DNA of 64,000 nt from an uncultured virus (IMG/VR IMGVR_UViG_3300034062_000507) (Duplodnaviria > Heunggongvirae > Uroviricota > Caudoviricetes), in IMG/VR virus record IMGVR_UViG_3300034062_000507, one strand, 5' to 3'. The notes under the pieces were generated by a model. That model was given only the letters and a program-made list of their open reading frames with translations, searched no databases and was not told where the DNA came from. This document shows, one piece after another, positions 1 to 12,002 of this stretch. A program made the translations under genes and the position numbers. Numbering within the stretch: the first letter of the stretch is position 1; each line of letters begins with the position of its first letter.

Positions 1-206
1 TTGGCCGTCTTCTCGCTTGTCAGCTTCGATTTCATCCCCTTCATGCGGGCGCAAAAAGAGTCGCGCCTGCTGCCGCCCTCGGGCTGTGGAGCCTTGAGGC
101 CCGGCTTGCCGGGGTTCGCTTTGTTGTAAGAGGCGCGTCCTTTGGCGTTCAAACCGCCCTTCTCGGATTTGCCCTCTTTGCGTTGCCATGCTGGTGACTT
201 TGCCAT
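1..206 (-). CDS. Small Lys-rich hypothetical protein, truncated by the left edge (DUF6321-like)
   Basis: Read by hand from ATG at 206: MAKSPAWQRKEGKSEKGGLNAKGRASYNKANPGKPGLKAPQPEGGSRRDSFCARMKG...; starts just after the stop of the upstream gene. Family name recalled from the SFCARM motif. Confidence 0.75.
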   Translation of the reverse strand, partial: MAKSPAWQRKEGKSEKGGLNAKGRASYNKANPGKPGLKAPQPEGGSRRDSFCARMKGMKSKLTSEKTA

Positions 207-207
207 T

Positions 208-1002
208 TTAAGAACCCTGCATGTAGTTCTGGATTAAGATGATGTTGAAGTACGAACTCACTGCGTTGTTTGCGGCGGCTCCAATTGCGCTTGCGCCCAC
301 ACAGTTCTTTTCTGGAATCATATAAGGCTGTTCAAAATCAAACACAGCGGCGTTGTTGTTTACTGCGGCAACCGCACCAACACGCAGGATGTTGTCTGTG
401 CCGTGTTGCTTTAAAAAGGTAGTGACAGAAGTCGAGCCGGTAGCTTGACCAGCAGAAATTGAACCCGTTGTCATGTAACCTGTGAAGCCTGCTGGAACAC
501 AGTAATGACCAGTCGTGCGCTGGTTGTAACCGATTGCAATGATGTCGTACAAAACTGCTGGGACGCCCGATGTCACCGTGCCAGTGCCAGCATTGATGTT
601 GCCTGCGTTTGCACCACCAGAGCCAACTGTAGCGACATAAAAACTGTTCACATACAGGTACGAGTTTGTTGTGTTGACTGCTGTTTGACCGTTCAATATT
701 ACGGTCTCGCTCACCACAGCAAAATTGCCGTCAACGCCTTCAATAAAGACGGTTCGCGCACCAGTGCCAGCAGAGGCATCGTCGGTGCTAGATGAACTGA
801 TTTTCAAAACGGATGCAACGGTTGGGTGCGGAATAAGACCGCCATCGGGCCACACGGTCTCTTCAGATGTGTCTACATCTGGGTTGTAGCCAAACACGAT
901 AACCGTGCTGTGGCCTTGAATTTGACCGCGAGATACCTGCAAGCCAAACGGCTCATACGTACCCACTTGGGTTATAGAACGCCAGATTCCAAGATTAGCC
1001 AT
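208..1002 (-). CDS. Putative virion structural protein (beta-rich, Gly/Thr/Ala-rich)
   Basis: 264-aa ORF with AAAGGAG RBS upstream of ATG 1002; lies downstream of the capsid genes. Confidence 0.6.
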   Translation of the reverse strand: MANLGIWRSITQVGTYEPFGLQVSRGQIQGHSTVIVFGYNPDVDTSEETVWPDGGLIPHPTVASVLKISSSSTDDASAGTGARTVFIEGVDGNFAVVSETVILNGQTAVNTTNSYLYVNSFYVATVGSGGANAGNINAGTGTVTSGVPAVLYDIIAIGYNQRTTGHYCVPAGFTGYMTTGSISAGQATGSTSVTTFLKQHGTDNILRVGAVAAVNNNAAVFDFEQPYMIPEKNCVGASAIGAAANNAVSSYFNIILIQNYMQGS

Positions 1003-1016
1003 AATCAATCTCCTTT

Positions 1017-1038
1017 AAAAAAGGGGCCAAAGCCCCTT
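1017..1038 (-). terminator. Intrinsic terminator
   Basis: AAGGGGC-TTTG-GCCCCTT followed by a T run on the minus strand, just after the 1046..1567 gene. Confidence 0.75.
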
Positions 1039-1045
1039 GGGTTGA

Positions 1046-1567
1046 TTAAGCGATACGAGAGAACACGTATGCAGTGGCGCTAGAGAACATGATGCGGAAG
1101 CAGCCAATGCCGGTCACGCCAGAGGGCACGGTTAACAGACCAGCACCAGCGCCAGAGCCAGCAGCCGCTGCGGCAGACAAGATGCCATTAACTGCCACGG
1201 CAACAGTCACTGTGTTTGCGCCAGCAGTGTTGTCAACAAACAAGTCCAGCGTAGTGCCAGCAGTAGCGCCCAAGGCCGCGCCCAACAAAGTACCTGTAGG
1301 CAAAGTGATGGTGGTTGCAGCGGCGGAAGTGGATGTGATGTAGCCTGTAGCAACTTGTGCTGCGGTGGCTGTAGCCGTTGCAGCAATAGCAGCGGTTGTG
1401 GGGTGATTTTGCTCTGTGAAGACCAGATTTGTTGTGGTCAGATCGGTCACGCTAGTAGCGGTACCAAGAGTAGAAGTAACGGTTACTGCGCCAGTAGCCG
1501 CGTTGACGGAGACGGTTTGGAAGCCGTTCTGCGAGCGAACTGGGCCATTGAACGTGGTATTAGCCAT
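1046..1567 (-). CDS. Putative capsid decoration / head fibre protein
   Basis: 173 aa, MANTTFNGPVRS N-terminus, Thr/Ala-rich; first gene after the major capsid protein; TAAGGA RBS. Confidence 0.55.
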   Translation of the reverse strand: MANTTFNGPVRSQNGFQTVSVNAATGAVTVTSTLGTATSVTDLTTTNLVFTEQNHPTTAAIAATATATAAQVATGYITSTSAAATTITLPTGTLLGAALGATAGTTLDLFVDNTAGANTVTVAVAVNGILSAAAAAGSGAGAGLLTVPSGVTGIGCFRIMFSSATAYVFSRIA

Positions 1568-1579
1568 GATATGTCCTTA

Positions 1580-1648
1580 CATACAAGTTAAGTGCATCAG
1601 TCTGTATGTCGTCAGCCGGGGACTGTCTAATGCACCGGAAAGCCCGGA
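1580..1648 (-). ncRNA. Candidate pseudoknotted 5' leader RNA
   Basis: P1 GGUGCAUUAG/CUGAUGCACU, inner hairpin CAGUC/GGCUG, pseudoknot CAUACAG/UUGUAUG abutting the SD; G-U pairs favour the minus strand. Confidence 0.6.
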
Positions 1649-1656
1649 TTGAAAGC

Positions 1657-1685
1657 AATATACAACAAAAGAAAGGGGGGCACAA
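1657..1685 (-). promoter_or_regulatory. Putative sigma70 promoter overlapping the capsid terminator
   Basis: TTGTGC-N17-TATATT on the minus strand. Confidence 0.4.
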
Positions 1686-1693
1686 GGCCCCCC
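1667..1693 (-). terminator. Intrinsic terminator after the major capsid gene
   Basis: GGGGGGC-CTTGT-GCCCCCC-TTTCTTTT on the minus strand. Confidence 0.8.
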
Positions 1694-1699
1694 GATCAA

Positions 1700-2608
1700 T
1701 TAAGCACCGGCAGAGCCGTACATGCCCAATGGGTCAGACCAGCCGAAGCTGTAACGCTCACGAGACTTGTAACGGACGTTACCTGTATCGAAGTCGCCGT
1801 CCATGCTGTTAGCCAGCGGAGTACGGACAAAGTGCTTCATGCCGTTAGGCACGTCTGTGGTCAAGAACCAAGCGTTGGTGTCGGTCAAGAAGTGGTTAAT
1901 TGTGTAACCTTCTGGGATCGAACCGTTGTTCTTCAACGCGTTGATGTCGTTGTCAGCGGTGCTGACGCGGAGTTCAGTTTCCAGCAAACGAGTTGCCGTG
2001 AACTGCAAAGCGGAAGGAACAACCAACTTCTTGGGCTTAGCAGCGATCAACAGGCCACGTTCATCAGTCCATGCAGCGATCTGAATAACAGCGTTTTCCA
2101 ACGATGTTTCGTTCAAGTCAGCAGGGGTAGATGGGATGTTGCTGTTGGTGCTACCAGAGATCAAGGGGTGTGCGCTAGAGAACAAAGCGACGCCGTCACC
2201 ACCAGTGTAGGCAGCGGAGAAGCCGTTGTTCAACACCGCAGCAGCTTTAACCTGCTTGGTGTAAGCCATAGCGCGAGCCAGACCTTTGGTGTAACGAGCG
2301 GACAACGAGTCATACAAGTTGTCTTCGATAGCTTCTTCAGTCAAGCTGAAGCCCAAGGCGATGGTTTCGTGGTTGTAACGAGCAGTCCATGCTTCTTGTG
2401 CGTTGTCATAAGCGATGGCGGAGCCTTCGTTCTTAACAGGTGCAGCGGAGAAGCCAGACAGCTTTGTTTCTTCCTCGAATGAACGCTCAGAAGTCTCGGT
2501 TTCGTAGATTTCTTTGTGCTCTTCGCCATAACGTGCATACTCCAGACCGAACAAAGCGTTCAGACCGGGGAGCAGCTCTTTCAATAGTTGTGCGCGTGAA
2601 ATAGCCAT
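1700..2608 (-). CDS. Major capsid protein (probable HK97 fold)
   Basis: 302 aa, MAISRAQLLKELLPGLNALFGLEY...RERYSFGWSDP pattern typical of phage capsids; downstream of portal/scaffold; strong RBS and terminator. Confidence 0.85.
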   Translation of the reverse strand: MAISRAQLLKELLPGLNALFGLEYARYGEEHKEIYETETSERSFEEETKLSGFSAAPVKNEGSAIAYDNAQEAWTARYNHETIALGFSLTEEAIEDNLYDSLSARYTKGLARAMAYTKQVKAAAVLNNGFSAAYTGGDGVALFSSAHPLISGSTNSNIPSTPADLNETSLENAVIQIAAWTDERGLLIAAKPKKLVVPSALQFTATRLLETELRVSTADNDINALKNNGSIPEGYTINHFLTDTNAWFLTTDVPNGMKHFVRTPLANSMDGDFDTGNVRYKSRERYSFGWSDPLGMYGSAGA

Positions 2609-2620
2609 GATTTAAGCTCC

Positions 2621-3445
2621 TTATGCTACGTAGTAGCGGTGTGCGCCGAAGTTGAACTTAACCAACACTTCGGGGGTTTCGACCAGTGCAACAGAACCGA
2701 CGACTTGAGTTGTTACAGAAGTCACGGTAAGAGTTGTACTACCAGTGGTTGTCACGGTAGAAGCAGCGCTCAAGGTAGCACCTGTGAACTGCAACTGACC
2801 ATTTACCACGTTGAACACGTCAGTGCCAATTGGCAAGAAAGTGCCTACGGGCAAACCAGACACAACAACCGAAGTCGCTGAAGGAGCGCCACCAGACACG
2901 TATGTGCCCGAAACGGTGATCTGTGTGTCAGGAACCAAGTTCAACACACGGAAGCCGCCACCAGAAGCGTTAGCAGACGCGCCAACCACAGACATGCCAC
3001 TGTTGCCAGTAGACGCAGAGCCAGTTTGTGTGCCGCCAGCCATGTTAGCGCCAACCAAGATCGAAGAAGCCGAGCCGATAACTGCACCGCCAGCGGTGGT
3101 AGAAACAGCGACCTTCATCACTTGATCAGGATCGTCACCGATGATGGCAGTGATGTCACCAGCGGTGACGTTGCCAGGGTAGTACTGCGAGAACAGACGT
3201 TGCTTGGTCGTGGGGTTTGTGTAATAGCAACCCAAGAAAACACCGACCGTTGTATTGGTGGTGCTAACGGGATAAGTTGCGATCACAACATAGCCGGCAG
3301 ACAAAGTAACCAGATCGCCGTTGTACAGCGGGGTACCGTAGTTGTACTGGATAGGTAGATTACGAGTGGAACCCGCAAACACCTGTCCACCGATCAAATT
3401 GACCGGTTTGACGCCGTAAGGGGCGTCGACAGTGGGATAAGCCAT
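2621..3445 (-). CDS. Putative minor capsid / cement protein
   Basis: 274 aa directly upstream of the capsid gene; AGGAG RBS. Confidence 0.55.
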   Translation of the reverse strand: MAYPTVDAPYGVKPVNLIGGQVFAGSTRNLPIQYNYGTPLYNGDLVTLSAGYVVIATYPVSTTNTTVGVFLGCYYTNPTTKQRLFSQYYPGNVTAGDITAIIGDDPDQVMKVAVSTTAGGAVIGSASSILVGANMAGGTQTGSASTGNSGMSVVGASANASGGGFRVLNLVPDTQITVSGTYVSGGAPSATSVVVSGLPVGTFLPIGTDVFNVVNGQLQFTGATLSAASTVTTTGSTTLTVTSVTTQVVGSVALVETPEVLVKFNFGAHRYYVA

Positions 3446-3465
3446 GAAAGACTCCTATAAAGATT

Positions 3466-3915
3466 TTAAGTGCCTTTGCCAAAGCTTGTCGAAGATTTCC
3501 GCTCATTGAAGATCGGCATCCGCGCATCGCTTTGACGCATCAAATTGTTATCTACAGCCTCTTCCTGTGCTCGAGTCATATCATTGAAGTATTTCTTTCG
3601 CTGATCGATGAACTCAGAAGGAGTCTTGCAGAGCAACAACCCGCCAATCTCAATGCTGTCCTTAAAACGGCTATTGGGATCGACTAGCAGTTTAAATTTA
3701 GGCTGTTCTTCGACACTAACCACCTCCCAACCTTCGCGCAATTTAGCGGAGAGGTTACGAGGATCAGCCTTGTCCAAAGTAGAAACCCGAATCCATCTGT
3801 ACGCAAAACCCGGAGCCCTATCAGGTTCCGGTAGAAGCTCCGCCTGCTGCCACTGCTTAGGGCGCTCTTGAGAGGTTCTGCTTGTAATTTCGCGTTGTAA
3901 TCTGTTATCAGCCAT
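3466..3915 (-). CDS. Conserved head-module protein of unknown function
   Basis: 149 aa with YRWIR and REGWE motifs; between scaffold and capsid genes. Confidence 0.6.
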   Translation of the reverse strand: MADNRLQREITSRTSQERPKQWQQAELLPEPDRAPGFAYRWIRVSTLDKADPRNLSAKLREGWEVVSVEEQPKFKLLVDPNSRFKDSIEIGGLLLCKTPSEFIDQRKKYFNDMTRAQEEAVDNNLMRQSDARMPIFNERKSSTSFGKGT

Positions 3916-4893
3916 TTAGGCCTCCAATTTCATGAGTTCACGAGCATATTGCTCGTTGGTTAATCCAAATTTCTTTGCCAAGCCCACCTGCGTCTTAGAA
4001 AGAACCACTTTTTTAGGAGCGGTGCTCCGTTTCGCTGGTGCGACCACCGTGCTTGGTTTTGTACGTTGAGGTTTTTCGTCCTCATCGTTAGTTGAAGCTC
4101 CACCAAATTCTTCTGGGAATCGGCGTTGAACTTCTCTGTCTATCGCTGCATAGTACTCATCTGTACCGATGTAGCCTCGACCATATTTGGATTCCAAATC
4201 CTCGTGAACACCTTCAGCATATCTGCGCATAGATCGTTTATTTTGATCAACGAACCACGGGTTTTTTGACACCCATGACGCAGCTTTAGGGTCCATTTGA
4301 GGGTTTTGAGACCTCTGTGGGATAGTTTGTACATCATTTTCTTCATTTTGTACAGTAGGCCTGAAATTTTTTGCTTTATCAAGCTTAAGCTGAGCACGGA
4401 TCATCTCCTGCTGAGCTTCAAGTAGCTTATCGGAATCGCCCGAATCGTAGGCTTCTTTGTAATTGCGGCTGGCTTTATCGACTTCCATTTCAGCGCTAGA
4501 CTGATATGTAGAGATAAGCTCTTTCTCGCCTGATTGCAGGACGCTTTTGAGCTTGCGGTTCTCGTCGAGAATACGCTGGGCAACGGACAAAGCTTCTTGT
4601 TGCTCGCGCAGTGCCGCCTCTTTCTCCCTACGTTCGTCGTGCCAAGCCTTCTTGTACTGCTTGAATTTGAGCTTCACGTTGTGGGAGTAATCTTCAGAGT
4701 CGTCGGCTTTCTCCAAGTCCTCTTTGATACTGTTTGGAAGGGGCTCTACGTACCGGTCTTCGGCAGGGGTATCGTCTTTGATGTCAACTTTAATATCTAC
4801 GTCGTCGCCTTCAATGGAGATATCAAGAGTATCTTCGGATTTATCCTCGCCTCCCTCATCTGGGAATTTATAGCTGTCGCTGAATTTAGGCAT
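3916..4893 (-). CDS. Putative capsid scaffolding protein
   Basis: 325 aa, acidic N-terminus, long coiled coil, short helical C-terminal domain; position between portal and capsid. Confidence 0.65.
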   Translation of the reverse strand: MPKFSDSYKFPDEGGEDKSEDTLDISIEGDDVDIKVDIKDDTPAEDRYVEPLPNSIKEDLEKADDSEDYSHNVKLKFKQYKKAWHDERREKEAALREQQEALSVAQRILDENRKLKSVLQSGEKELISTYQSSAEMEVDKASRNYKEAYDSGDSDKLLEAQQEMIRAQLKLDKAKNFRPTVQNEENDVQTIPQRSQNPQMDPKAASWVSKNPWFVDQNKRSMRRYAEGVHEDLESKYGRGYIGTDEYYAAIDREVQRRFPEEFGGASTNDEDEKPQRTKPSTVVAPAKRSTAPKKVVLSKTQVGLAKKFGLTNEQYARELMKLEA

Positions 4894-4902
4894 GTGCGCT
4901 CC

Positions 4903-5322
4903 TTATTTGCGTTTGATGCCGCGAGGATCGTCAACAATACCTTCTACGGTATCGTCGTTGATGATGCGGAACTCTCTACCGTGGATGACCAGTCGTGAAC
5001 CAGCATAGGGCCGGACCAAGATAAAGTCGCCTTGTTTGCACCAAGGTCCTGTTGGGAACTTTGCTGCATCTTTGTAGCAGTCTGGGCCAAGGGCAACAAC
5101 AAACAGGACGGTTGTGAGCGTCTCTTCGTTGCGCATGGTTTCGTCTGCTTTGATCAAACCAGCTTCGCTGTCTTCATACTTTGCTTCCGCCTCTGGGATG
5201 GCGCAAAGAATGCGATATCCCGCTGGCTTTGGCAACTGCTTAGCCTTCTCCTCTGCTTTCTTGTGCATCAAGGACGACAAGTCGACTGCTTGATTTAAGT
5301 TCAACGTAGGCGTTTCACTCAT
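4903..5322 (-). CDS. groES: Co-chaperonin GroES (Cpn10)-like protein
   Basis: PAGYRIL...AGLI...VVALGPD...KQGDFILV..YAG......GREFRIINDDTVEGIV follows the Cpn10 pattern. Confidence 0.85.
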   Translation of the reverse strand: MSETPTLNLNQAVDLSSLMHKKAEEKAKQLPKPAGYRILCAIPEAEAKYEDSEAGLIKADETMRNEETLTTVLFVVALGPDCYKDAAKFPTGPWCKQGDFILVRPYAGSRLVIHGREFRIINDDTVEGIVDDPRGIKRK

Positions 5323-5515
5323 CCAAATTCTCCAAGTTTTTTGTCAGGTCTGTGATGTTTCTACGTGCTGTGAGTAGACCTGTAATAACCCCACATTGCG
5401 CGCAGTACTCAGAGTAGTCCTTGGCAGTTTTGGCCCCCAAGTCCTCCTCAATTTGTTTGACCTTCTGGTCAATTTGCTGGACTATTAACTCCAGCGCTTG
5501 TTTAGTTTGGTACAT
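5315..5515 (-). CDS. Small helical hypothetical protein
   Basis: ~66 aa, coupled to the portal stop and overlapping the groES start. Confidence 0.6.
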   Translation of the reverse strand: MYQTKQALELIVQQIDQKVKQIEEDLGAKTAKDYSEYCAQCGVITGLLTARRNITDLTKNLENLDE

Positions 5516-8040
5516 CAATCACCCCTATTAGGTTTTTGCTGTTTAGACCTGTTCTCAGCCTGCATCCGAGCAATCTCTTTCTGATTGGCCAGCATCATCT
5601 GGTGCTTTTGCAAGTCCATGCCGGTCGTAAAGCCAGCTTGCTCATGCGTGTGGTCACGCTGCTGTTTGTCAGCCTGCGCCTTCATCGCAATCCTCACGCC
5701 CTCAGTCTCCTGCTGTGCGTTGATGCGCTCACGCTCAATCTGCAACTGAGCTTGCTTGAGCATGACATCTGCCTGATCTTTAGCCGCCTTGCGCTGCTGC
5801 TCTTGAGCTTTAAGCTCGAGTTCTTTCTGCTGCAACTGGATGAGCGGGTCTTGCTGCATCTGCTGGTTCTTCTGCTGCTGAGCTTGTTGCTGGCTCTGCT
5901 GCAAGAGCTGCTGAGCTGCTTGCGCAGCCATCTGAGACACCTGAACCTCCATCTCTGGAGGCATATCAACCTCATCCGCATCTTCGTTGTACGGAGGCAG
6001 TGTCTGGCCCATCGCCTGCTCGATCTGCTTGCGCATCTCCATACCCAAGTGCTCGGCAATGTGGGCGGAGCCAGCTGCCATAAGCTGCTGCATCAACTGA
6101 GGGTTCTGGCCAATCAGCTGCTGGATGCGAGGGTCTTGCGCCATCGCCATGTGAACAGTGATGTGCGCTTGGTGATCTTGGTACAGGAACGCTTTAACAG
6201 GCTTGTTGTTGAGCATGTTCTGATTCTCTGTGACAGGATCACGAGGCTTCATATCGTCCTGCATCGGCACAAGCTTCTGGTAGTTCTTGATGCCCAGCAC
6301 GTCGAGCATCTGACGGTGCAAGAGAGGCAGGTCGTACAACTGCGGAGCAGTCTGCGCCAACTGGAGAGCCGCCTGATACTGGACAACTTTCTGAGCCATC
6401 GTCGCAGCGTTGGGGTCACTCACTGGGATGATGTCGACCATGTCGTAGTCAGACTGCTTCGCACGACGCCCGCCCTCGATAGGCTCGTAACTGTATGTAG
6501 GAGGGGTGTAGTCGCGGATGATTGTTTTCAAGAGCCTGAACTCTTGCTTCATCGAGTAGTGGATGCGAGACTGAACAGCCGACATTGTCTTGAGCTGACG
6601 CTCAAGGATGGCCAGTGTTGTGCCCACGGGAGCCTGCGCTGACATGTCCGATGTCTGCAACTCCACAGCGCCCGCAAACTTGCGGCCTTCATCAATGATC
6701 TGGTTGAGCAGCGCCGCCAAGACCTGTGATGGCTCCTTGTACGGCAGGGGCATGATGTTGTCACGCATCGTGCCGCTAGGAACGTCTACATCACGGAATT
6801 CGCCGGGGGAGATTGGAGTGTCATCACCTTTGGTGCGAAGTCCTCGAGTCTTAAACCCGCCGGGGAGGTTAGATAGAGTTCCAGCGTCAACAAGCTGACG
6901 AAGAATAGAAGTACCAGATTTAGCAAAAGCACCAATGAGGTGAACAAGGCCAAAATTGTAAAAGCCAAAGCCGGGAATGTAGCCGTAATGGACAAAGTGC
7001 GTGCGCTTTTGGCAGAGTTTGTCGTCTGGCTCCCAGTTGCGGCGGATTGCAAGAACGTTCGTTGTGCCCTTCTCAATCGTGACGATGTACGGGAGCGCGA
7101 TCCCCGTCTCCTCGCCGCTGTCTTCGTCCTTGTGCTCATAACCTTTGAGGTCTAGGTCGACCTGCATCTCCAAGAGTTTGAATCGGTCATCTTGTGTCGC
7201 ACGAAAGCCCATCTTCTCCGCGATGCGCTTCTCGACTTCGTCCATCGTCTGAGTGGGTTCGCCCAAGTCAATATCACGGTAAAAACCCTCATGCTGCAAA
7301 CGCTTAAGGTCGTTCTTGTTCTTGCGCATGACGTGCGTGATACGTTCCGCATCAGCAAGGCTTGAAGCGCCGTAAGGCACGACTACATCTTCCGCTGGCG
7401 CGTACATAGACACCTGACGATCAAGCGCCGGGTCGAAATACACCTTCTTGAACGCGTTACCAGCAAGGCCCAAGCCCCACAGCATGCGCTCGTGCTCTGG
7501 CCTGTATTCTTTCATCACGTCAGTGAGCTGGTAGTTCATGTCTTCCTGAACCCGCTCCGCCGCGTCTTTCTTCTCGGGAGTTTCTTTGCCGATGATCTTT
7601 GTCTTGACAGGCCCCGCCGCAGGGAACGTCTCCATCATCGTCTCAGCTTGAAACTTCACAACAGCTTCTGTGAGCAGTGGGTGGTACACGCCGCAAGCAC
7701 CGGGCCACGGCTCCGTACGCTCCTCCATCTTCAGGCCCAACAGTTCTAGGCCATCGACGTAGGTCTGTATCCAATCTTTGCGCGCGGACACGTCAGCGTC
7801 GTAGTCGCCAATCAACTCACTAGCAAGTGCGGCAAGAACATCATCAGGGATGTCTTCAGCCAAGTTTTTATTGAACTCGTCATCGTCCTCTTCTGGCTCA
7901 ATCTCGATCTCTACGTCACCAGCTTGGATGCGCACAGACTCGGGGTCTTCAATCTCGATCTCGATTGGCTCTTCCATACCTCCCAACTGATCCAGTCCTT
8001 GAGGAGCTCCGTACAAAGCCTTGTCCATATTCGTCGCCAT
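5515..8040 (-). CDS. Portal protein (P22-like, Gln-rich C-terminal coiled coil)
   Basis: 841 aa directly after terL; HPLLTEAVVKFQA and GFYNFGLVHLIG segments; long Q-rich helical tail. Confidence 0.85.
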   Translation of the reverse strand: MATNMDKALYGAPQGLDQLGGMEEPIEIEIEDPESVRIQAGDVEIEIEPEEDDDEFNKNLAEDIPDDVLAALASELIGDYDADVSARKDWIQTYVDGLELLGLKMEERTEPWPGACGVYHPLLTEAVVKFQAETMMETFPAAGPVKTKIIGKETPEKKDAAERVQEDMNYQLTDVMKEYRPEHERMLWGLGLAGNAFKKVYFDPALDRQVSMYAPAEDVVVPYGASSLADAERITHVMRKNKNDLKRLQHEGFYRDIDLGEPTQTMDEVEKRIAEKMGFRATQDDRFKLLEMQVDLDLKGYEHKDEDSGEETGIALPYIVTIEKGTTNVLAIRRNWEPDDKLCQKRTHFVHYGYIPGFGFYNFGLVHLIGAFAKSGTSILRQLVDAGTLSNLPGGFKTRGLRTKGDDTPISPGEFRDVDVPSGTMRDNIMPLPYKEPSQVLAALLNQIIDEGRKFAGAVELQTSDMSAQAPVGTTLAILERQLKTMSAVQSRIHYSMKQEFRLLKTIIRDYTPPTYSYEPIEGGRRAKQSDYDMVDIIPVSDPNAATMAQKVVQYQAALQLAQTAPQLYDLPLLHRQMLDVLGIKNYQKLVPMQDDMKPRDPVTENQNMLNNKPVKAFLYQDHQAHITVHMAMAQDPRIQQLIGQNPQLMQQLMAAGSAHIAEHLGMEMRKQIEQAMGQTLPPYNEDADEVDMPPEMEVQVSQMAAQAAQQLLQQSQQQAQQQKNQQMQQDPLIQLQQKELELKAQEQQRKAAKDQADVMLKQAQLQIERERINAQQETEGVRIAMKAQADKQQRDHTHEQAGFTTGMDLQKHQMMLANQKEIARMQAENRSKQQKPNRGD

Positions 8041-8083
8041 GATTCGTCCTTAGTAGTGCGCGGCCCAACAAGTTGTTCCGCTT

Positions 8084-9601
8084 TCAATAATACGCAGTTT
8101 TTTTGCGGTACTGTTTTAAAAAATTATCTTCCGGCTCGTCCGTCGGAAGACGCAGAAACCCGCCCTGCCGGAATCTTAACAGTGCAAGTGTTGTGGAGTC
8201 CACCAAGTCGTCGTTAGTGCCAGCTGGGAAGTCATTGCACTCTTCTATGACTTCCTTAGCCCATCTACGGTCAGGCGCAAACACGATGCCTGAGGCAAAC
8301 AAGTCAGACACCGCGTTCACCCGCGCTATCTTGTCCTGTCCTTTACCCGGCGTGAACTCCCCTACGGGGATGCCCATTCTCCTGAACTCCTGATACAGCG
8401 CCGATCCGTTGGATTTCTTCTCCACCATGAACGCATCTGGCTGCCATTCTCTGTATTCTTCGAGCACCAGCTTCTTAAGTTCTGGATACTCCATGCGTTT
8501 TTTGATCGCGTTCAAGAGAATGATGGCAAAGTTCTGAGTCTCCTCGTTATAGAAGACCCCCCACGTTGTTAGAGCGTTATAGTCAGCTCTATTAGAGGCT
8601 TCTTGCGCGGCGTCGAGCGACATAATGGTGAATTCGCACTGGGGAGGGTCGTCTTTCTCCCAAATCTGCCACCACTCACGCTTAATTAACGCCCCTTCCT
8701 CTGAAGTGGGCTTTTGCATGTACTGCGCGTTCCAATACCGGATGTCCAGAGCCGCTTTCTTAGACAAAAGCTCCTCAACATCCCAGAATTCTGGCCAAAG
8801 TGCCTGTCCGTCGTCTTTAATGGCAGGAAACTCAACCACTTCCCACGCATCTACGTCTTCATTGCGTTCAGTTTGCTGAACAATCATGCCCGTCAGGTCC
8901 AATTTGGACCAACGGGTCATCACAATAATAATAGCGCCACCCGGCATAAGCCGCTGGAGAGGACCAGACTGAAACCATTCCCAAGCAGGAAGAAATACAT
9001 CGGGTCTTCCAGTTTTAGCTTCTTGCTCAGAATGAGGATCATCAATAATAAATAGATCAGCACCCCGCCCAGCAAGAGCGCCTCCCACACCGATAGCGAA
9101 ATATTCACCATTGAAGTTTGTTCCCCATCTTGAAGCAGATTTAGAGTCAGATTGCAGCTCTACTTGCGGAAATATGCCCTTATACGCATCCGATCCAACG
9201 AGGTTACGCACACGACGGCCAAAGTTAACAGCCAAATCCGCCGTGTGAGACCCCATGATAATCTTTTTCTGAGGGTACTTACCCAAGAACCACGCTGGCG
9301 CAAGATAGGATATGAGCTCAGACTTACCATGTCGTGGAGCAATATTAACAATGACTCGTTTTTTCTTGCCAGCAGCAATATCCTCAAAGATTTGAATAAG
9401 CTTGAGATGATGAGGACCAACTTTGTATCCGGGATATACGTGATTAATGAAGTCAAGGAAGCTCTCCTTACCCAAACTTTGAGTCATCTGGGCGTCGTAC
9501 TGTTTCAGCAGCTCGAGAGTGCGCCTTTTCTGCTTGTCAGGCATAGCTGGCAAGGCTTGTCGCAGTCTAAAAATTGCTTCAGGCGTCAGTGTTTGGCTCA
9601 T
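8084..9601 (-). CDS. terL: Terminase large subunit
   Basis: Walker A APRHGKS, Walker B IIDDPH, MTRW coupling motif, nuclease residues SLDAA, VEKKSNG and DDLVDS. Confidence 0.95.
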   Translation of the reverse strand: MSQTLTPEAIFRLRQALPAMPDKQKRRTLELLKQYDAQMTQSLGKESFLDFINHVYPGYKVGPHHLKLIQIFEDIAAGKKKRVIVNIAPRHGKSELISYLAPAWFLGKYPQKKIIMGSHTADLAVNFGRRVRNLVGSDAYKGIFPQVELQSDSKSASRWGTNFNGEYFAIGVGGALAGRGADLFIIDDPHSEQEAKTGRPDVFLPAWEWFQSGPLQRLMPGGAIIIVMTRWSKLDLTGMIVQQTERNEDVDAWEVVEFPAIKDDGQALWPEFWDVEELLSKKAALDIRYWNAQYMQKPTSEEGALIKREWWQIWEKDDPPQCEFTIMSLDAAQEASNRADYNALTTWGVFYNEETQNFAIILLNAIKKRMEYPELKKLVLEEYREWQPDAFMVEKKSNGSALYQEFRRMGIPVGEFTPGKGQDKIARVNAVSDLFASGIVFAPDRRWAKEVIEECNDFPAGTNDDLVDSTTLALLRFRQGGFLRLPTDEPEDNFLKQYRKKTAYY

Positions 9602-10151
9602 TCTTTACCACTTCACGAGCTTCAACATCAATGACCTTACCTTCGAGGCTTTGTAAGGTCTCCAGAAGTTCTTTTTCTACCTCTTCGGCAGTCAAAATCT
9701 TGTGCGTAACTTCCGTGCGCTTCTTGAATGCGTCCACACCATCAATCTCGCCCAAGTTTCTTAGGGCAGTAAGCCGTGCTTTGGGGTCGCGCGCATTCTC
9801 AATCTCATACACAAGCTTGTTGACCACGTACATCTTGAAGTCAGACAGCTCTTCTACGATAGACACGTTCATCTGAGCAACCATGCCGGCAAGAAACGCC
9901 AATGTTTCGTTGGGGTAGCTCGCAAACTCGGGCCTGTGTTTGGGGTCCTGCGCCATCTGACGGGCTAGGACTGTGGCCTGATCTGCGTTTTCTTGGGTGG
10001 GGGTAAGCGCCTGACCCGTGAGGTCTGACATTAGCTTGATGACGTTGGCCCGCATCTGCAATTCTTCAGCAGGCGACAAGTCTGGGAACGCTTCTTTTGC
10101 GTTCTGTGGCAGAGGAATATTTTCCTCGATGTTCGGCATTATCTGGTCCAT
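9579..10151 (-). CDS. Putative terminase small subunit
   Basis: 190-aa helical protein overlapping the terL start; ARLTALRNLGEIDGVDAF resembles TerS C-termini. Confidence 0.65.
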   Translation of the reverse strand: MDQIMPNIEENIPLPQNAKEAFPDLSPAEELQMRANVIKLMSDLTGQALTPTQENADQATVLARQMAQDPKHRPEFASYPNETLAFLAGMVAQMNVSIVEELSDFKMYVVNKLVYEIENARDPKARLTALRNLGEIDGVDAFKKRTEVTHKILTAEEVEKELLETLQSLEGKVIDVEAREVVKNEPNTDA

Positions 10152-10181
10152 GTCAGCGAAGGCTCCTTCGGCAGTTACCCT

Positions 10182-10211
10182 AATGTAACAGAAAAATATA
10201 TCTTTGTGCAA
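10182..10211 (-). promoter_or_regulatory. Putative leftward (packaging/late) promoter
   Basis: TTGCAC-N18-TACATT with TGn extension, upstream of terS. Confidence 0.45.
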
Positions 10212-10408
10212 GGGGAGGTTAGGAATCCTACCGGGGGGGTATTTCTAGGTGGATTTGGATTGACCGGCGTGTGTAATTCGTGAAGGGGGTGGGGGGTGTT
10301 TGGAAAAAATGTGGAGTTATTTGTGCGTGTTAGGGGGTATGGGGTATGCGGGGGGACCCATTGACAGCCTTGGGGGGTGGGGGGATGGGGGGCGTCCCCC
10401 TGCCAAAC

Positions 10409-10438
10409 TTTACTTATGCCCCCCATTCATGGCACATT
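10409..10438 (+). promoter_or_regulatory. Early promoter, class A, copy 1
   Basis: TTTACT-N18-CACATT with TGn; similar to copies at 11258 and 12152. Confidence 0.55.
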
Positions 10439-10488
10439 TACATCACTGACTCAGCACATCGCAAAGGGTCAGTAACCGGGAGACCTAC

Positions 10489-10701
10489 ATGGTCATGCAC
10501 GCAGTACGTAAGTGGATTCGTACCCACGGTTTGTTCACCGCGTCAGTGACGCTCGACGATAGCACAACGTCTTACAAGACGTGGACGAAGTCCAGTGCGC
10601 TGGAATGGATGTGGTTGCACAGCCGCAAGCAGTCAGCGCAACAGTTCAGCACGGTTACCAACGTGCTTGGCCAACGTGTCGCGGTACGTTACTACCGCTA
10701 A
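10489..10701 (+). CDS. Small early hypothetical protein
   Basis: 70 aa, GGAG RBS, followed by a UUCG hairpin. Confidence 0.55.
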   Translation: MVMHAVRKWIRTHGLFTASVTLDDSTTSYKTWTKSSALEWMWLHSRKQSAQQFSTVTNVLGQRVAVRYYR

Positions 10702-10706
10702 CCAAC

Positions 10707-10730
10707 GAGGGGACTTCGGTCCCCTCTCTT
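10707..10730 (+). terminator. Hairpin / weak terminator
   Basis: GAGGGGAC-TTCG-GTCCCCTC-TCTT. Confidence 0.65.
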
Positions 10731-10741
10731 CTGGAGAAACC

Positions 10742-10954
10742 ATGAAAGCAAAGCAGCCATCCATCCAGCAGACGATCAACTCGTTCGTCCACGCTGATCC
10801 CTTCAACGCACTGTTTGTGTATGAAGCCATCAATCGCCATGTGCAGTATGTCATGCGCCTTGACCCCAAGGATCATGAACGCTCGCTGGTCAGTCTCAAC
10901 CTGATGCAAGAGATTGCACAGGATTGGCACAACACAACACATCCGAGTAAGTGA
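10742..10954 (+). CDS. Small early hypothetical protein
   Basis: 70 aa MKAKQPSIQQ..., GGAG RBS. Confidence 0.6.
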   Translation: MKAKQPSIQQTINSFVHADPFNALFVYEAINRHVQYVMRLDPKDHERSLVSLNLMQEIAQDWHNTTHPSK

Positions 10955-11148
10955 TGACCACAGGCCAGACCAACATCTGGCGTGCTCATGTGCGGCAGGC
11001 AACGCTTGCCGCACTGCGCGAACGCCGTCCACTCAGTGCAATCAACCCTCGCGCTGTGTTCTTCCACACAATACGACAGGGAGTGACACGCGCAACATTC
11101 ATCGCCAAGGTAGAGGGCGATGAGTTCAGTAGGTATCCACGCCGCTGA
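10954..11148 (+). CDS. Small basic early hypothetical protein
   Basis: TGATG coupling with the previous gene; followed by a hairpin. Confidence 0.5.
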   Translation: MTTGQTNIWRAHVRQATLAALRERRPLSAINPRAVFFHTIRQGVTRATFIAKVEGDEFSRYPRR

Positions 11149-11152
11149 CCAC

Positions 11153-11176
11153 AGACCATCCTTTCGGGGATGGTTT
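11153..11176 (+). terminator. Intrinsic terminator-like hairpin
   Basis: GACCATCC...GGATGGTTT inverted repeat after the stop codon. Confidence 0.55.
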
Positions 11177-11214
11177 GATACCAGTTATTTTCCGTCGCGC
11201 GAATGAGTGCGTGC
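11174..11214 (+). repeat. Conserved intergenic box, copy 1
   Basis: TTTGAtACCAGTTATTTT....CGCGCG...GAGTGCGTGCG, also at 12067 and 12894 and partly at 23373. Confidence 0.85.
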
Positions 11215-11257
11215 GTGCCACAAGGCCGCTAAATAGGACTCCATCCCCGCGTGAAAC

Positions 11258-11287
11258 TTTACTTAAGACCCTTCATTGTGTCACTAT
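11258..11287 (+). promoter_or_regulatory. Early promoter, class A, copy 2
   Basis: TTTACT-N18-CACTAT with TGn; degenerate palindrome at 11240-11255 just upstream. Confidence 0.6.
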
Positions 11288-11354
11288 TCAATCACTGAGA
11301 CGCAATTCAGCACTCAGTGTTTTATCAATCGTTCATATTCATGGAGATTTGAAC

Positions 11355-12002
11355 ATGGCAACTAAAGCCGCAAAAGTCGTGGAATCCGCCACGCAAGTAT
11401 CCTTCACTTCACTGAAGGACTCAGCATTCCAACAAGCCGGTGCGCACCAGACCTTAGAGTCAGTCGCGCATTATGTTCTGGCGAATGTTAAAGACTTCCC
11501 CAAAGAAATCCCCACCGAAGCTAAAGACTCTCTTTATGAGGGTTACCGCATGAAGTTTGATGCGCTCAAACCCGCCACTATGTATGCCGTTATCAACGGC
11601 CACTATGTTCTGGCGACTGAAGAGCACAAGGCCGCAAAGAACGTGGAAAAAGTGGAGATCGGTATCCCGTATGCTTACTCTTACTCAGCGCAGGAATTCG
11701 GCAAACTGGCGAATACCAACCCTGCGCTCCACGCCCTTGTGAAGGAAATCAGGGAAAAGACTTCTACTTATTGCTCAAATCGATTGGGTGATTTGAAGAG
11801 GGCCGCGACTCGCATCCTGAACGATGGTCAAGATCGCAAGCGTACCGCGAATAAAGACTTCGCTGAGTTTGTTGACGAATGGTTTAAAGAAACCGCACCA
11901 ACCCGACTGAAGTCGGCAACAAGCCGCAGGGATGCTACTGCGGATGACAAGCGTTTCAATGAAGCAAAAGTCGCATTCATGGTGATATGGAAGCGCACCT
12001 AA
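11355..12002 (+). CDS. Early protein of unknown function, paralog 1
   Basis: 215 aa from ATG 11355 (GGAG RBS); clearly similar to 12237..12836 (EAKD.LY.GYRM, YAVIN.HYVLA, QEFGKL.NTNPALHA, YCSNRLGDLKRAA). Confidence 0.85.
   Translation: MATKAAKVVESATQVSFTSLKDSAFQQAGAHQTLESVAHYVLANVKDFPKEIPTEAKDSLYEGYRMKFDALKPATMYAVINGHYVLATEEHKAAKNVEKVEIGIPYAYSYSAQEFGKLANTNPALHALVKEIREKTSTYCSNRLGDLKRAATRILNDGQDRKRTANKDFAEFVDEWFKETAPTRLKSATSRRDATADDKRFNEAKVAFMVIWKRT

What the first reader, a model, noticed from the sequence alone, without database searches (positions are those of the whole stretch)
1580..1648. Pseudoknotted leader RNA abutting the SD of the gene after the major capsid protein
Seen: on the sense (minus) strand, a 5' CCGG/CCGG hairpin, a 10-bp P1 with G-U pairs, an inner hairpin, and a 7-nt loop segment CAUACAG complementary to UUGUAUG, which ends directly at UAAGGA. 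A possible promoter sits inside the capsid terminator just upstream. Established: the T4 gene 32 leader uses a pseudoknot for translational autoregulation. Inference: a translational switch that sets the ratio of a decoration protein to capsid, or an unassigned riboswitch-like motif.
Basis: partly seen in the sequence, partly recalled or inferred. Interest (0 to 1): 0.7.

Follow-up and report, generated by a model that had tools for sequence, protein, structure and literature searches.

The report
Knotted leader RNA of capsid-spike gene
The first 70 letters of a phage message for a capsid-surface protein fold into a conserved double knot around three repeated GAC triplets, and relatives of this knot bury the ribosome landing site and start codon, so it is most likely an untested off-switch for making that protein.

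Summary
Real and conserved. Window 1647-1579 (minus) is the 5' leader, behind its own sigma-70-like promoter, of the capsid cement/spike gene of an HTVC023P-type phage. It misses Rfam yet shares site and core with orphan Mu-gpT-DE (RF03012). The scan found this long form before on other DNA. Added here: in Mu-gpT-DE the same knot pairs with the start codon and codon 2 (69 G-C with Ala, 39 C-G with Gly, 1 other of 109) while P2 holds the SD; intermediate and circularly permuted forms exist; all keep three GAC strands closing a pseudo-threefold junction. Folding therefore touches the initiation region in four topologies. Best reading: a translational operator bound by a late phage protein, probably the gene's own product through its only shared part, the N-terminal arm. 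No ligand or function is shown.

The parts
1700..2608 (-). Major capsid protein gene (upstream), HTVC023P-type
   Evidence: PF25209 E 3e-14, phrog_371; 64-65% identical to HTVC023P/HTVC027P capsid proteins
1665..1693 (-). Intrinsic terminator of the capsid operon (G-C stem 1693-1675, U tract)
   Evidence: sequence
1680..1685 (-). Putative -35 box TTGTGC in the terminator loop
   Evidence: TTG 16-18 nt before the -10 box in 78 of 111 homologues that have one; inferred
1657..1662 (-). Putative -10 box TATATT; start of transcription inferred at about 1650-1649
   Evidence: TAnnnT 5-9 nt before the motif in 111 of 170 homologues against 34 of 499 shifted windows; A at -3 in 116 of 170; start not measured
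1643..1647 (-). PK1 5' strand (CCGGG), first bases of the message
   Evidence: covaries with 1620-1616
1635..1639 (-).
   Evidence: 136 of 170 can form 4 bp, 118 of 122 in the CCGGG clade, 10 of 35 in CTRGG
1627..1636 (-).
   Evidence: 94.7% paired, 9 of 9 pairs change on both sides
1625..1627 (-). Junction strand 1, GAC (A1626 unpaired)
   Evidence: A invariant in A1/A2; closing pair G-C 38, A-U 18, G-U 4, other 3
1613..1625 (-). P3 hairpin (1625-1623 with 1615-1613); its loop carries the PK1 3' strand CCCGG 1620-1616
   Evidence: P3 100% paired, 2 of 3 pairs change on both sides
1611..1613 (-). Junction strand 2, GAC; C1611 pairs with G1602
   Evidence: C-G 68, U-A 4, U-G 1, no mismatch among 73 capsid-selected long leaders
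1603..1609 (-). PK2 5' strand ACAUACA
   Evidence: 175 of 178 long leaders form 5 or more Watson-Crick pairs with their own 3' region against 28% of crossed pairs
1600..1602 (-). Junction strand 3, GAC
1591..1600 (-). P2 3' strand
   Evidence: sequence
1579..1585 (-). PK2 3' strand UGUAUGU, ending on the first base of the SD
   Evidence: SD starts within one base of the end of PK2 in 137 of 178
1574..1579 (-). Shine-Dalgarno UAAGGA
   Evidence: sequence
1046..1567 (-). 173-aa capsid cement/spike-slot gene: shared N-terminal arm (about 1567-1520) and a variable C-terminal domain
   Evidence: model pLDDT 62; best fold Pa223 capsid-spike knob, Z 8.2, rmsd 3.2 over 99 residues, a middling match; largest cluster at this slot matches Pam1 cement E 5e-6 and cement folds E<=6e-4

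Best explanation
It is the 5' untranslated leader of a late gene for a capsid cement/spike protein and works as a translational operator. SHOWN (comparative): it folds into P2 and P3 joined by three GAC strands, each with one unpaired A, locked by two pseudoknots, and the fold ends on the SD; relatives put the SD and the start codon inside the same fold. INFERRED: the folded, ligand-bound state blocks or slows 30S initiation. INFERRED, weaker: the ligand is the gene's own free product, probably a trimer, binding through the N-terminal arm that also anchors it to the capsid; assembling heads would titrate the protein off the RNA, so that supply follows capsid number.
For: Covariation of all four helices. 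Leader stays with the arm-bearing gene: 95 of 95 capsid-selected loci with such a gene carry the core (92 parsed, 2 by model R1, 1 by eye); in 20 of 70 hits it lies 334-1293 nt past the capsid stop; one copy in the window, 1 of 114 SD-led starts. Short form = RF03012 (20 of 20): SD in P2, and the loop pairs with AUG and codon 2 (69 G-C, 39 C-G, 1 other of 109; at least 14 changes on a capsid tree; 64/29/6 of 99). Intermediate form: 60 of 102 leaders pair with the start (57 G-C, 2 C-G, 1 other). Permuted form: third GAC and SD-enclosing helix predicted and found in 19 of 19; some have almost no helix left, which suggests a ligand is needed. Three-strand junction in 374 of 451 leaders against 95 of 2255 shuffles; 93 of 143 against 37 of 715 in sets not chosen by RNA pattern. 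Only the N-terminal arm is common to the downstream proteins; the nearest solved fold is a homotrimer anchored at 3-fold axes by its N-terminus (10.1101/2025.06.11.659172, passages). Precedent: uS15 operators of unlike topology, and P22 scaffolding autoregulation.
Against: No binding, probing or reporter data. In the window's form the SD lies outside the helices (overlap one base), so blocking must be steric. The body of the downstream protein does not track the RNA: 26 clusters of 55-295 aa, and 139 of 203 near-identical RNA pairs precede different clusters, which leaves only a 14-residue arm that is poor in Arg/Lys and unlike known RNA-binding peptides (recalled). The oligomeric state of the window's protein is not determined and its fold match is middling. 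The third junction pair changes in only about two independent lineages. 77 of 451 leaders fail the strict junction test, among them HTVC027P. Conserved A's could be purely structural.
Confidence: 0.42

Rival explanations
1. Same operator, but the ligand is another protein: a conserved phage head protein (capsid, scaffold, or the 149-aa or 274-aa head-module proteins) or a host factor such as bS1.
For: The RNA is kept while the downstream protein's body is swapped; the head module is conserved in all cultured relatives fetched; long and short forms follow the capsid tree more than chance (11 changes against a mean of 49); bS1 binds pseudoknots (PMC10931766, passage).
Against: Only one gene in the window has the element, which fits self-control better than a general late regulator; no RNA-binding fold was found for the 149-aa protein (blank); hosts span several proteobacterial classes.
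Confidence: 0.23
2. A ligand-free structural device: the knot protects the 5' end of the message and sets a fixed translation rate.
For: The fold starts within about 3 nt of the inferred 5' end; the long form is stable and has no selected alternative structure; HTVC027P gp62 RNA is 3.0-5.4 times gp63.
Against: A plain hairpin would do; the three GAC strands survive circular permutation and loss of nearly all helices; short forms lack the 5' knot.
Confidence: 0.14
3. A small-molecule or ion riboswitch whose pocket is the three-A junction.
For: Compact, multi-knotted fold with a few invariant junction bases, and SD/AUG capture in the short forms, as in translational riboswitches.
Against: No Rfam riboswitch match; always one structural gene, never a metabolic gene, among pattern hits with context; not found outside phage DNA in 151 genomes searched (a weak search); no alternative fold in the long form.
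Confidence: 0.13
4. A trans-acting or oligomer-forming small RNA (pRNA-like, arms pairing between molecules) or a ribozyme, merely co-transcribed with the gene.
For: Own promoter; Rfam files the relative as sRNA; both knots could in principle pair between molecules.
Against: Pairing with the gene's own start codon and covariation with codon 2 tie it to translation in cis; no terminator follows; linkers of 7-8 and 6-7 nt allow intramolecular folding; no ribozyme family matches.
Confidence: 0.06

Closest known systems
Mu-gpT-DE RNA motif (Rfam RF03012, filed as sRNA, 53 positions; origin in Weinberg et al. 2017 recalled, main text has no 'gpt', supplement unreadable)
   Same: Same site (after capsid terminator and promoter, before the arm-bearing gene, e.g. 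Roseobacter phage CRP-902), same P2-A-P3-AC-loop-GA core, same three GAC strands, and the same loop-to-3' pseudoknot.
   Different: Window form has a 9-10 bp P2, a 3-bp P3 whose loop pairs with the 5' end, and dedicated 3' strands, leaving SD and AUG just outside; it does not score with RF03012. The Rfam model ends at AUG and shows no pseudoknot.
rpsO/uS15 translational operators (PMC10931766 passages; PMC3985624 start of abstract)
   Same: Autogenous operators whose topology varies (pseudoknot embracing SD and start, pseudoknot upstream of the initiation site, three-way junction) around a small recognised core; a hairpin form competes with the knot.
   Different: No sequence or Rfam relation; repressor there is a ribosomal protein mimicking rRNA binding; here the ligand is unknown and the core is three GAC strands.
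E. coli alpha-operon leader bound by uS4 (PMC10931766 passage)
   Same: Complex pseudoknot that includes the ribosome binding site.
   Different: Unrelated sequence; larger; ligand known. 'Nested double pseudoknot' is recalled.
T4 gene 32 leader pseudoknot (PMC10690425 passage)
   Same: Phage leader pseudoknot used for translational self-control.
   Different: Single knot bound by an ssDNA-binding protein; distance from the start and cooperative filling are recalled; here two knots end on the SD of a structural gene.
P22 scaffolding protein translational autoregulation (10.1101/2022.12.13.520362, one passage)
   Same: A head-assembly protein limiting its own translation through its N-terminus.
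   Different: No comparable RNA structure was seen in what I read; different protein class.

Membership tests
Mu-gpT-DE (RF03012) | Reaches the Rfam gathering score (49 bits) | tested here: not met
   No hit in the window, in 20 long-form loci or at E<=10 in 5 records
Mu-gpT-DE (RF03012) | Lies directly downstream of a Mu-like gpT capsid gene | tested here: met
   PF10124 hit E 1.6e-8 on the capsid protein; 53 nt after its stop
Mu-gpT-DE (RF03012) | Core P2 - A - CAG...CUG - AC - loop - GA - P2' | tested here: met
Mu-gpT-DE (RF03012) | P2 is CCUG/CAGG with the SD as its 3' strand; P3 a closed 7-bp hairpin | tested here: not met
   Window P2 is 9-10 bp and ends 12 nt before the SD; P3 is 3 bp with a knotted loop
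Mu-gpT-DE (RF03012) | Loop between AC and GA pairs with a 3' strand (feature found here, not in the Rfam structure line) | tested here: met
   long form; short form
Known riboswitch and ribozyme families in Rfam 15 | Match to a family covariance model | tested here: not met
   (only terminator-driven chance hits)
Riboswitch (class) | Selective binding of a small ligand | not testable with these tools
   needs probing
Riboswitch (class) | Selected alternative structure or SD inside the ligand-stabilised helix | tested here: inconclusive
   absent in the long form, present in short, intermediate and permuted forms
Autogenous translational operator (uS15, uS4, gp32 type) | Conserved leader structure at or over the initiation region of one gene | tested here: met
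Autogenous translational operator (uS15, uS4, gp32 type) | The gene's product binds the RNA and represses translation | not testable with these tools
   no RNA-protein test available
Capsid cement/spike gene (downstream protein) | Fold of a solved cement or spike protein | tested here: inconclusive
   window protein Z 8.2 to Pa223 spike knob, Foldseek E 1.7e-3; another cluster at the same slot clearly cement-like

The most novel reading that the evidence does not exclude
The three GAC strands form a pseudo-threefold RNA junction that is read by the three N-terminal arms of the trimeric cement/spike protein, standing in for the capsid's threefold site; one operator, rebuilt in at least four topologies (double knot, knot onto the start codon, Mu-gpT-DE, circular permutation), matches spike supply to head assembly in one of the most abundant phage groups of oceans and lakes.
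Probability: 0.25. Interest if true: 0.85.

Novelty: new variant of a known kind. Interest (0 to 1): 0.62.

Why it matters
[quoted passage not shown] An orphan Rfam motif filed as sRNA turns out, by covariation with its gene's second codon, to be a cis element on the initiation site, with a much wider family than the model covers. That gives direct tests in cultured phages (HTVC023P, HTVC027P, CRP-902, DSL-LC04) and in E. coli reporters. If the ligand is the spike trimer it would be a new kind of RNA-protein recognition and a rare case of feedback control of a dsDNA-phage decoration protein; if it is a small molecule, a phage riboswitch. The permuted and minimal forms are natural scaffolds for structure work.

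Tried and rejected
Own assembly not held. Rfam at E<=10 gave only terminator-driven chance hits. Loop-to-loop knot inside Mu-gpT-DE: own pairing equals crossed, rejected; that call also missed the start-codon knot because its 3' region stopped before AUG. Conserved anti-RBS hairpin in the long form: own -3.52, crossed -3.53 kcal/mol, rejected; the hairpin around the SD in the window (-4.2) is local. Pairing of leader strands with the first 60 coding bases in the long form: no excess. PK2 counted on alignment A4 is only 65.8% paired because clades are out of register; the register-free test replaced it. A first, loose junction test hit 120 of 451 shuffles and was tightened. P2 coordinates printed were two bases off; those reported are read. 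RNA runs: only assembled contigs of relatives, shares <=0.13, no ends or strand: uninformative. 151-genome search scored only 32 candidates per genome: weak. No solved-structure sequence hit for the window's protein or capsid protein; Atlas gave only unnamed viral clusters. Trimer prediction was never run, so it is no evidence either way. 36 of 55 distinct matches of the permuted pattern were not in front of an arm gene by my pattern (2 of them are arm genes the pattern missed). One paper search was swamped by building and dental cement. Hammerhead, HDV, twister, pistol, SAM, preQ1 and guanidine-II resemblances were considered from memory and dropped on topology and on the Rfam result.

Full report
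Setting. The finding lies on the minus strand between a 302-aa major capsid protein gene (1700-2608) and a 173-aa gene (1046-1567). The capsid protein is 64-65% identical to those of Pelagibacter phages HTVC023P and HTVC027P and 56% to Roseobacter phages CRP-901/902, so the window is an HTVC023P-type phage; its host is unknown. After the stop come a terminator, a promoter-like pair TTGTGC-17-TATATT whose first box lies in the terminator loop, the motif, UAAGGA and AUG.

Observation. From 80 loci chosen by capsid protein alone, model R1 (built on the window and 56 of these loci, nested helices only) hit 70 (14 were not in training, some of them close to training rows). Of the 10 misses, 3 end within 81 bases of the stop and 7 have other DNA filling the fetched flank. 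On the 69 distinct hits, the 5' strand pairs with the inner loop in 98.8% of cells (4 of 5 pairs change on both sides), P2 in 94.7% (9 of 9), P3 in 100% (2 of 3). A register-free test on 178 long leaders gave PK1 of 5 pairs in 163 (6% of crossed pairs) and PK2 of 5 or more in 175 (28%); about 105 of these leaders came from a pattern that fixed PK1, so the cleaner figure is a set chosen by the downstream protein: PK1 in 23 of 24 parsed long leaders, PK2 of 6 or more in 16 of 24, with 28 of 74 distinct leaders not parsed by that script. Nested energy alone is ordinary; 0 of 3000 shuffles carry the full arrangement.

What it belongs to. It heads the downstream gene, not the capsid gene: 20 of the 70 hits lie 334-1293 nt after the capsid stop, each with its own promoter-like box (111 of 170 against 34 of 499). 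All 95 capsid-selected loci with a gene that starts with the arm MAxTTFxGP carry the core (92 parsed, L066 and L240 by R1, L256 by eye). A scan by RNA pattern alone returned 120 loci, 103 with the capsid gene in the flank; most of the rest had short flanks and three seen were chance (output partly cut). R1 also hits HTVC023P (41 bits) and DSL-LC04, whose downstream gene is annotated 'cement protein'. There is one copy in the window. Beyond the arm the downstream proteins fall into 26 clusters of 55-295 aa (205 complete ORFs, a few counted twice by alternative starts). The largest cluster is cement-like (Pam1 7eel E 5e-6; Foldseek E<=6e-4 to Pam1, KHP30 and GP4 capsid entries). The window's own protein gives a middling model (pLDDT 62) whose best match is the knob of the Pa223 capsid spike (Z 8.2, rmsd 3.2, 99 residues), a homotrimer fixed at threefold axes by its N-terminus (10.1101/2025.06.11.659172, passages). 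In HTVC027P the gene behind the motif (gp62) is classed late; its RNA is 2.4-6.6 times gp60 and passes the capsid gene at 9 h (ratio 1.23) before falling to 0.38 (PMC12753301 Table S3 rows and sections 4 and 12). That fits a separate promoter, but gp61 is about as high, so it is not proof.

Relation to Mu-gpT-DE. RF03012 does not hit the long form but hits the same site in CRP-902 and L226. A pattern scan gave 120 such short leaders, 106 with the capsid gene; 20 of 20 tested are RF03012. In them the 3' strand of P2 is the SD (fixed by my pattern), and the loop between AC and GA is complementary to the start codon and codon 2: 69 G-C where codon 2 is Ala-type, 39 C-G where it is Gly, 1 other of 109, with at least 14 changes among 58 leaders on a capsid tree; on a plain MAFFT alignment 64, 29 and 6 of 99. 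The Rfam model stops at AUG and shows no such knot. So both forms have the same 3' pseudoknot. An intermediate form has PK1, a long P2 and the knot onto the start (60 of 102 leaders; 57 G-C, 2 C-G, 1 other). A circularly permuted form encloses the SD in one helix and the start in another; a pattern that stopped at the SD predicted the rest, and 19 of 19 arm-gene leaders had the third GAC before AUG with the helix intact (AAC/GTT 15, TAC/GTA 4). Long and short forms change 11 times on a tree of 176 labelled capsid proteins against a mean of 49 for shuffled labels.

The core. What all forms keep is three GAC strands, each G pairing with the C of another, leaving one A per strand: in the window 1627-1625, 1613-1611 and 1602-1600. 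The third pair is C-G in 68, U-A in 4 (about two lineages) and U-G in 1 of 73 capsid-selected long leaders, with no mismatch although the parser allowed one. A strict test passes 374 of 451 leaders against 95 of 2255 shuffles, and 93 of 143 against 37 of 715 in sets not chosen by RNA pattern; 77 fail, mostly through a bulge or a 2-bp helix. That the junction is threefold in space is inference.

Mechanism. Shown: structure by covariation, linkage to one gene, contact with the initiation region in four topologies. Inferred: folded means off or down. In the short and permuted forms the helices are too weak to hold alone, so a ligand is likely; in the long form the SD starts within one base of the knot's end in 137 of 178 and no alternative fold is selected, which suits a bulky ligand blocking the ribosome better than a small one. 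uS15 operators show the same spread, from knots that embrace the start to knots upstream of it to three-way junctions (PMC10931766, passages). The gene's own product is my first candidate because only this gene has the element and its only shared part is the capsid-anchoring arm; against this, the arm is short and not basic, and 139 of 203 near-identical RNA pairs precede different protein clusters. I put cis control of translation at about 0.8 in all, self-control at 0.42.

Novelty. Ten searches of the paper library found no description of the long, intermediate or permuted forms; the name Mu-gpT-DE appears in the CaCoFold paper (PMC7657543, passage and supplement rows: a helix extended). The library lacks most subscription journals; the Weinberg 2017 supplement could not be read (main text passages only) and the alignment files of Fremin 2023 (PMC10690425, passages; three of six held files not searched, three more too large) may hold these forms as anonymous candidates. 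PMC9599517 and PMC12002296 were seen as passages and add only context. The scan itself noted the long form at least nine times on other DNA and named Mu-gpT-DE; two word searches of its notes for the start-codon knot and the GAC junction returned nothing. Verdict: a real, uncatalogued variant of an orphan motif, with enough new anatomy to make its function testable.

Noticed in passing
L034 about 2540-2612 and L060 about 1705-1780: A 23-codon ORF inserted between the capsid terminator and the leader looks like a PqqA precursor peptide (seen; label recalled, not tested).
   Followed up: no
L006, L009, L012, L014, L021, L032, L036, L053, L058, L063, L066, L077, just after the capsid stop: Inserted ORFs that look like HNH or GIY-YIG endonucleases (labels recalled) recur between the capsid gene and the leader: an insertion hot spot.
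   Followed up: partly
L094, second arm gene: Two arm-bearing genes in tandem; only the first has the leader.
   Followed up: no
L213:3945-4021 and L217:3956-4043: Forms with PK2 but no 5' knot and G in place of the first junction A.
   Followed up: partly
L480 and L495: Nearly identical intermediate leaders differing by one compensatory pair between the loop and codon 2 (Gly against Ala): a natural mutant pair for reporters.
   Followed up: partly
L256:3466-3550 (HTVC027P, before gp62) and L536, L541, L577, L580: Long form whose 3' knot strand runs into the SD itself and whose P3 is only 2-3 bp; not an R1 hit for L256.
   Followed up: partly
L509 and L574 leaders: Variants with an altered third junction strand that my parser could not place.
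   Followed up: no
window 4903-5322 (-): GroES-like co-chaperonin gene in the head module (phrog_3188), also in CRP-902 and vB_Af_QDWS535.
   Followed up: no
window 3466-3915 (-) and 2621-3445 (-): Conserved head-module proteins of unknown function (phrog_36003, phrog_37556); candidates for the ligand; Atlas search unnamed.
   Followed up: partly
L201-L254: Capsid-bearing contigs sit in MAGs labelled with many unrelated phyla, most likely phage contigs binned by accident; they do not name a host.
   Followed up: no
window 10211 (-): The only other TTG-N-TAnnnT promoter-like site found in 1-12000 on the minus strand lies at the head of the terminase-portal region.
   Followed up: no
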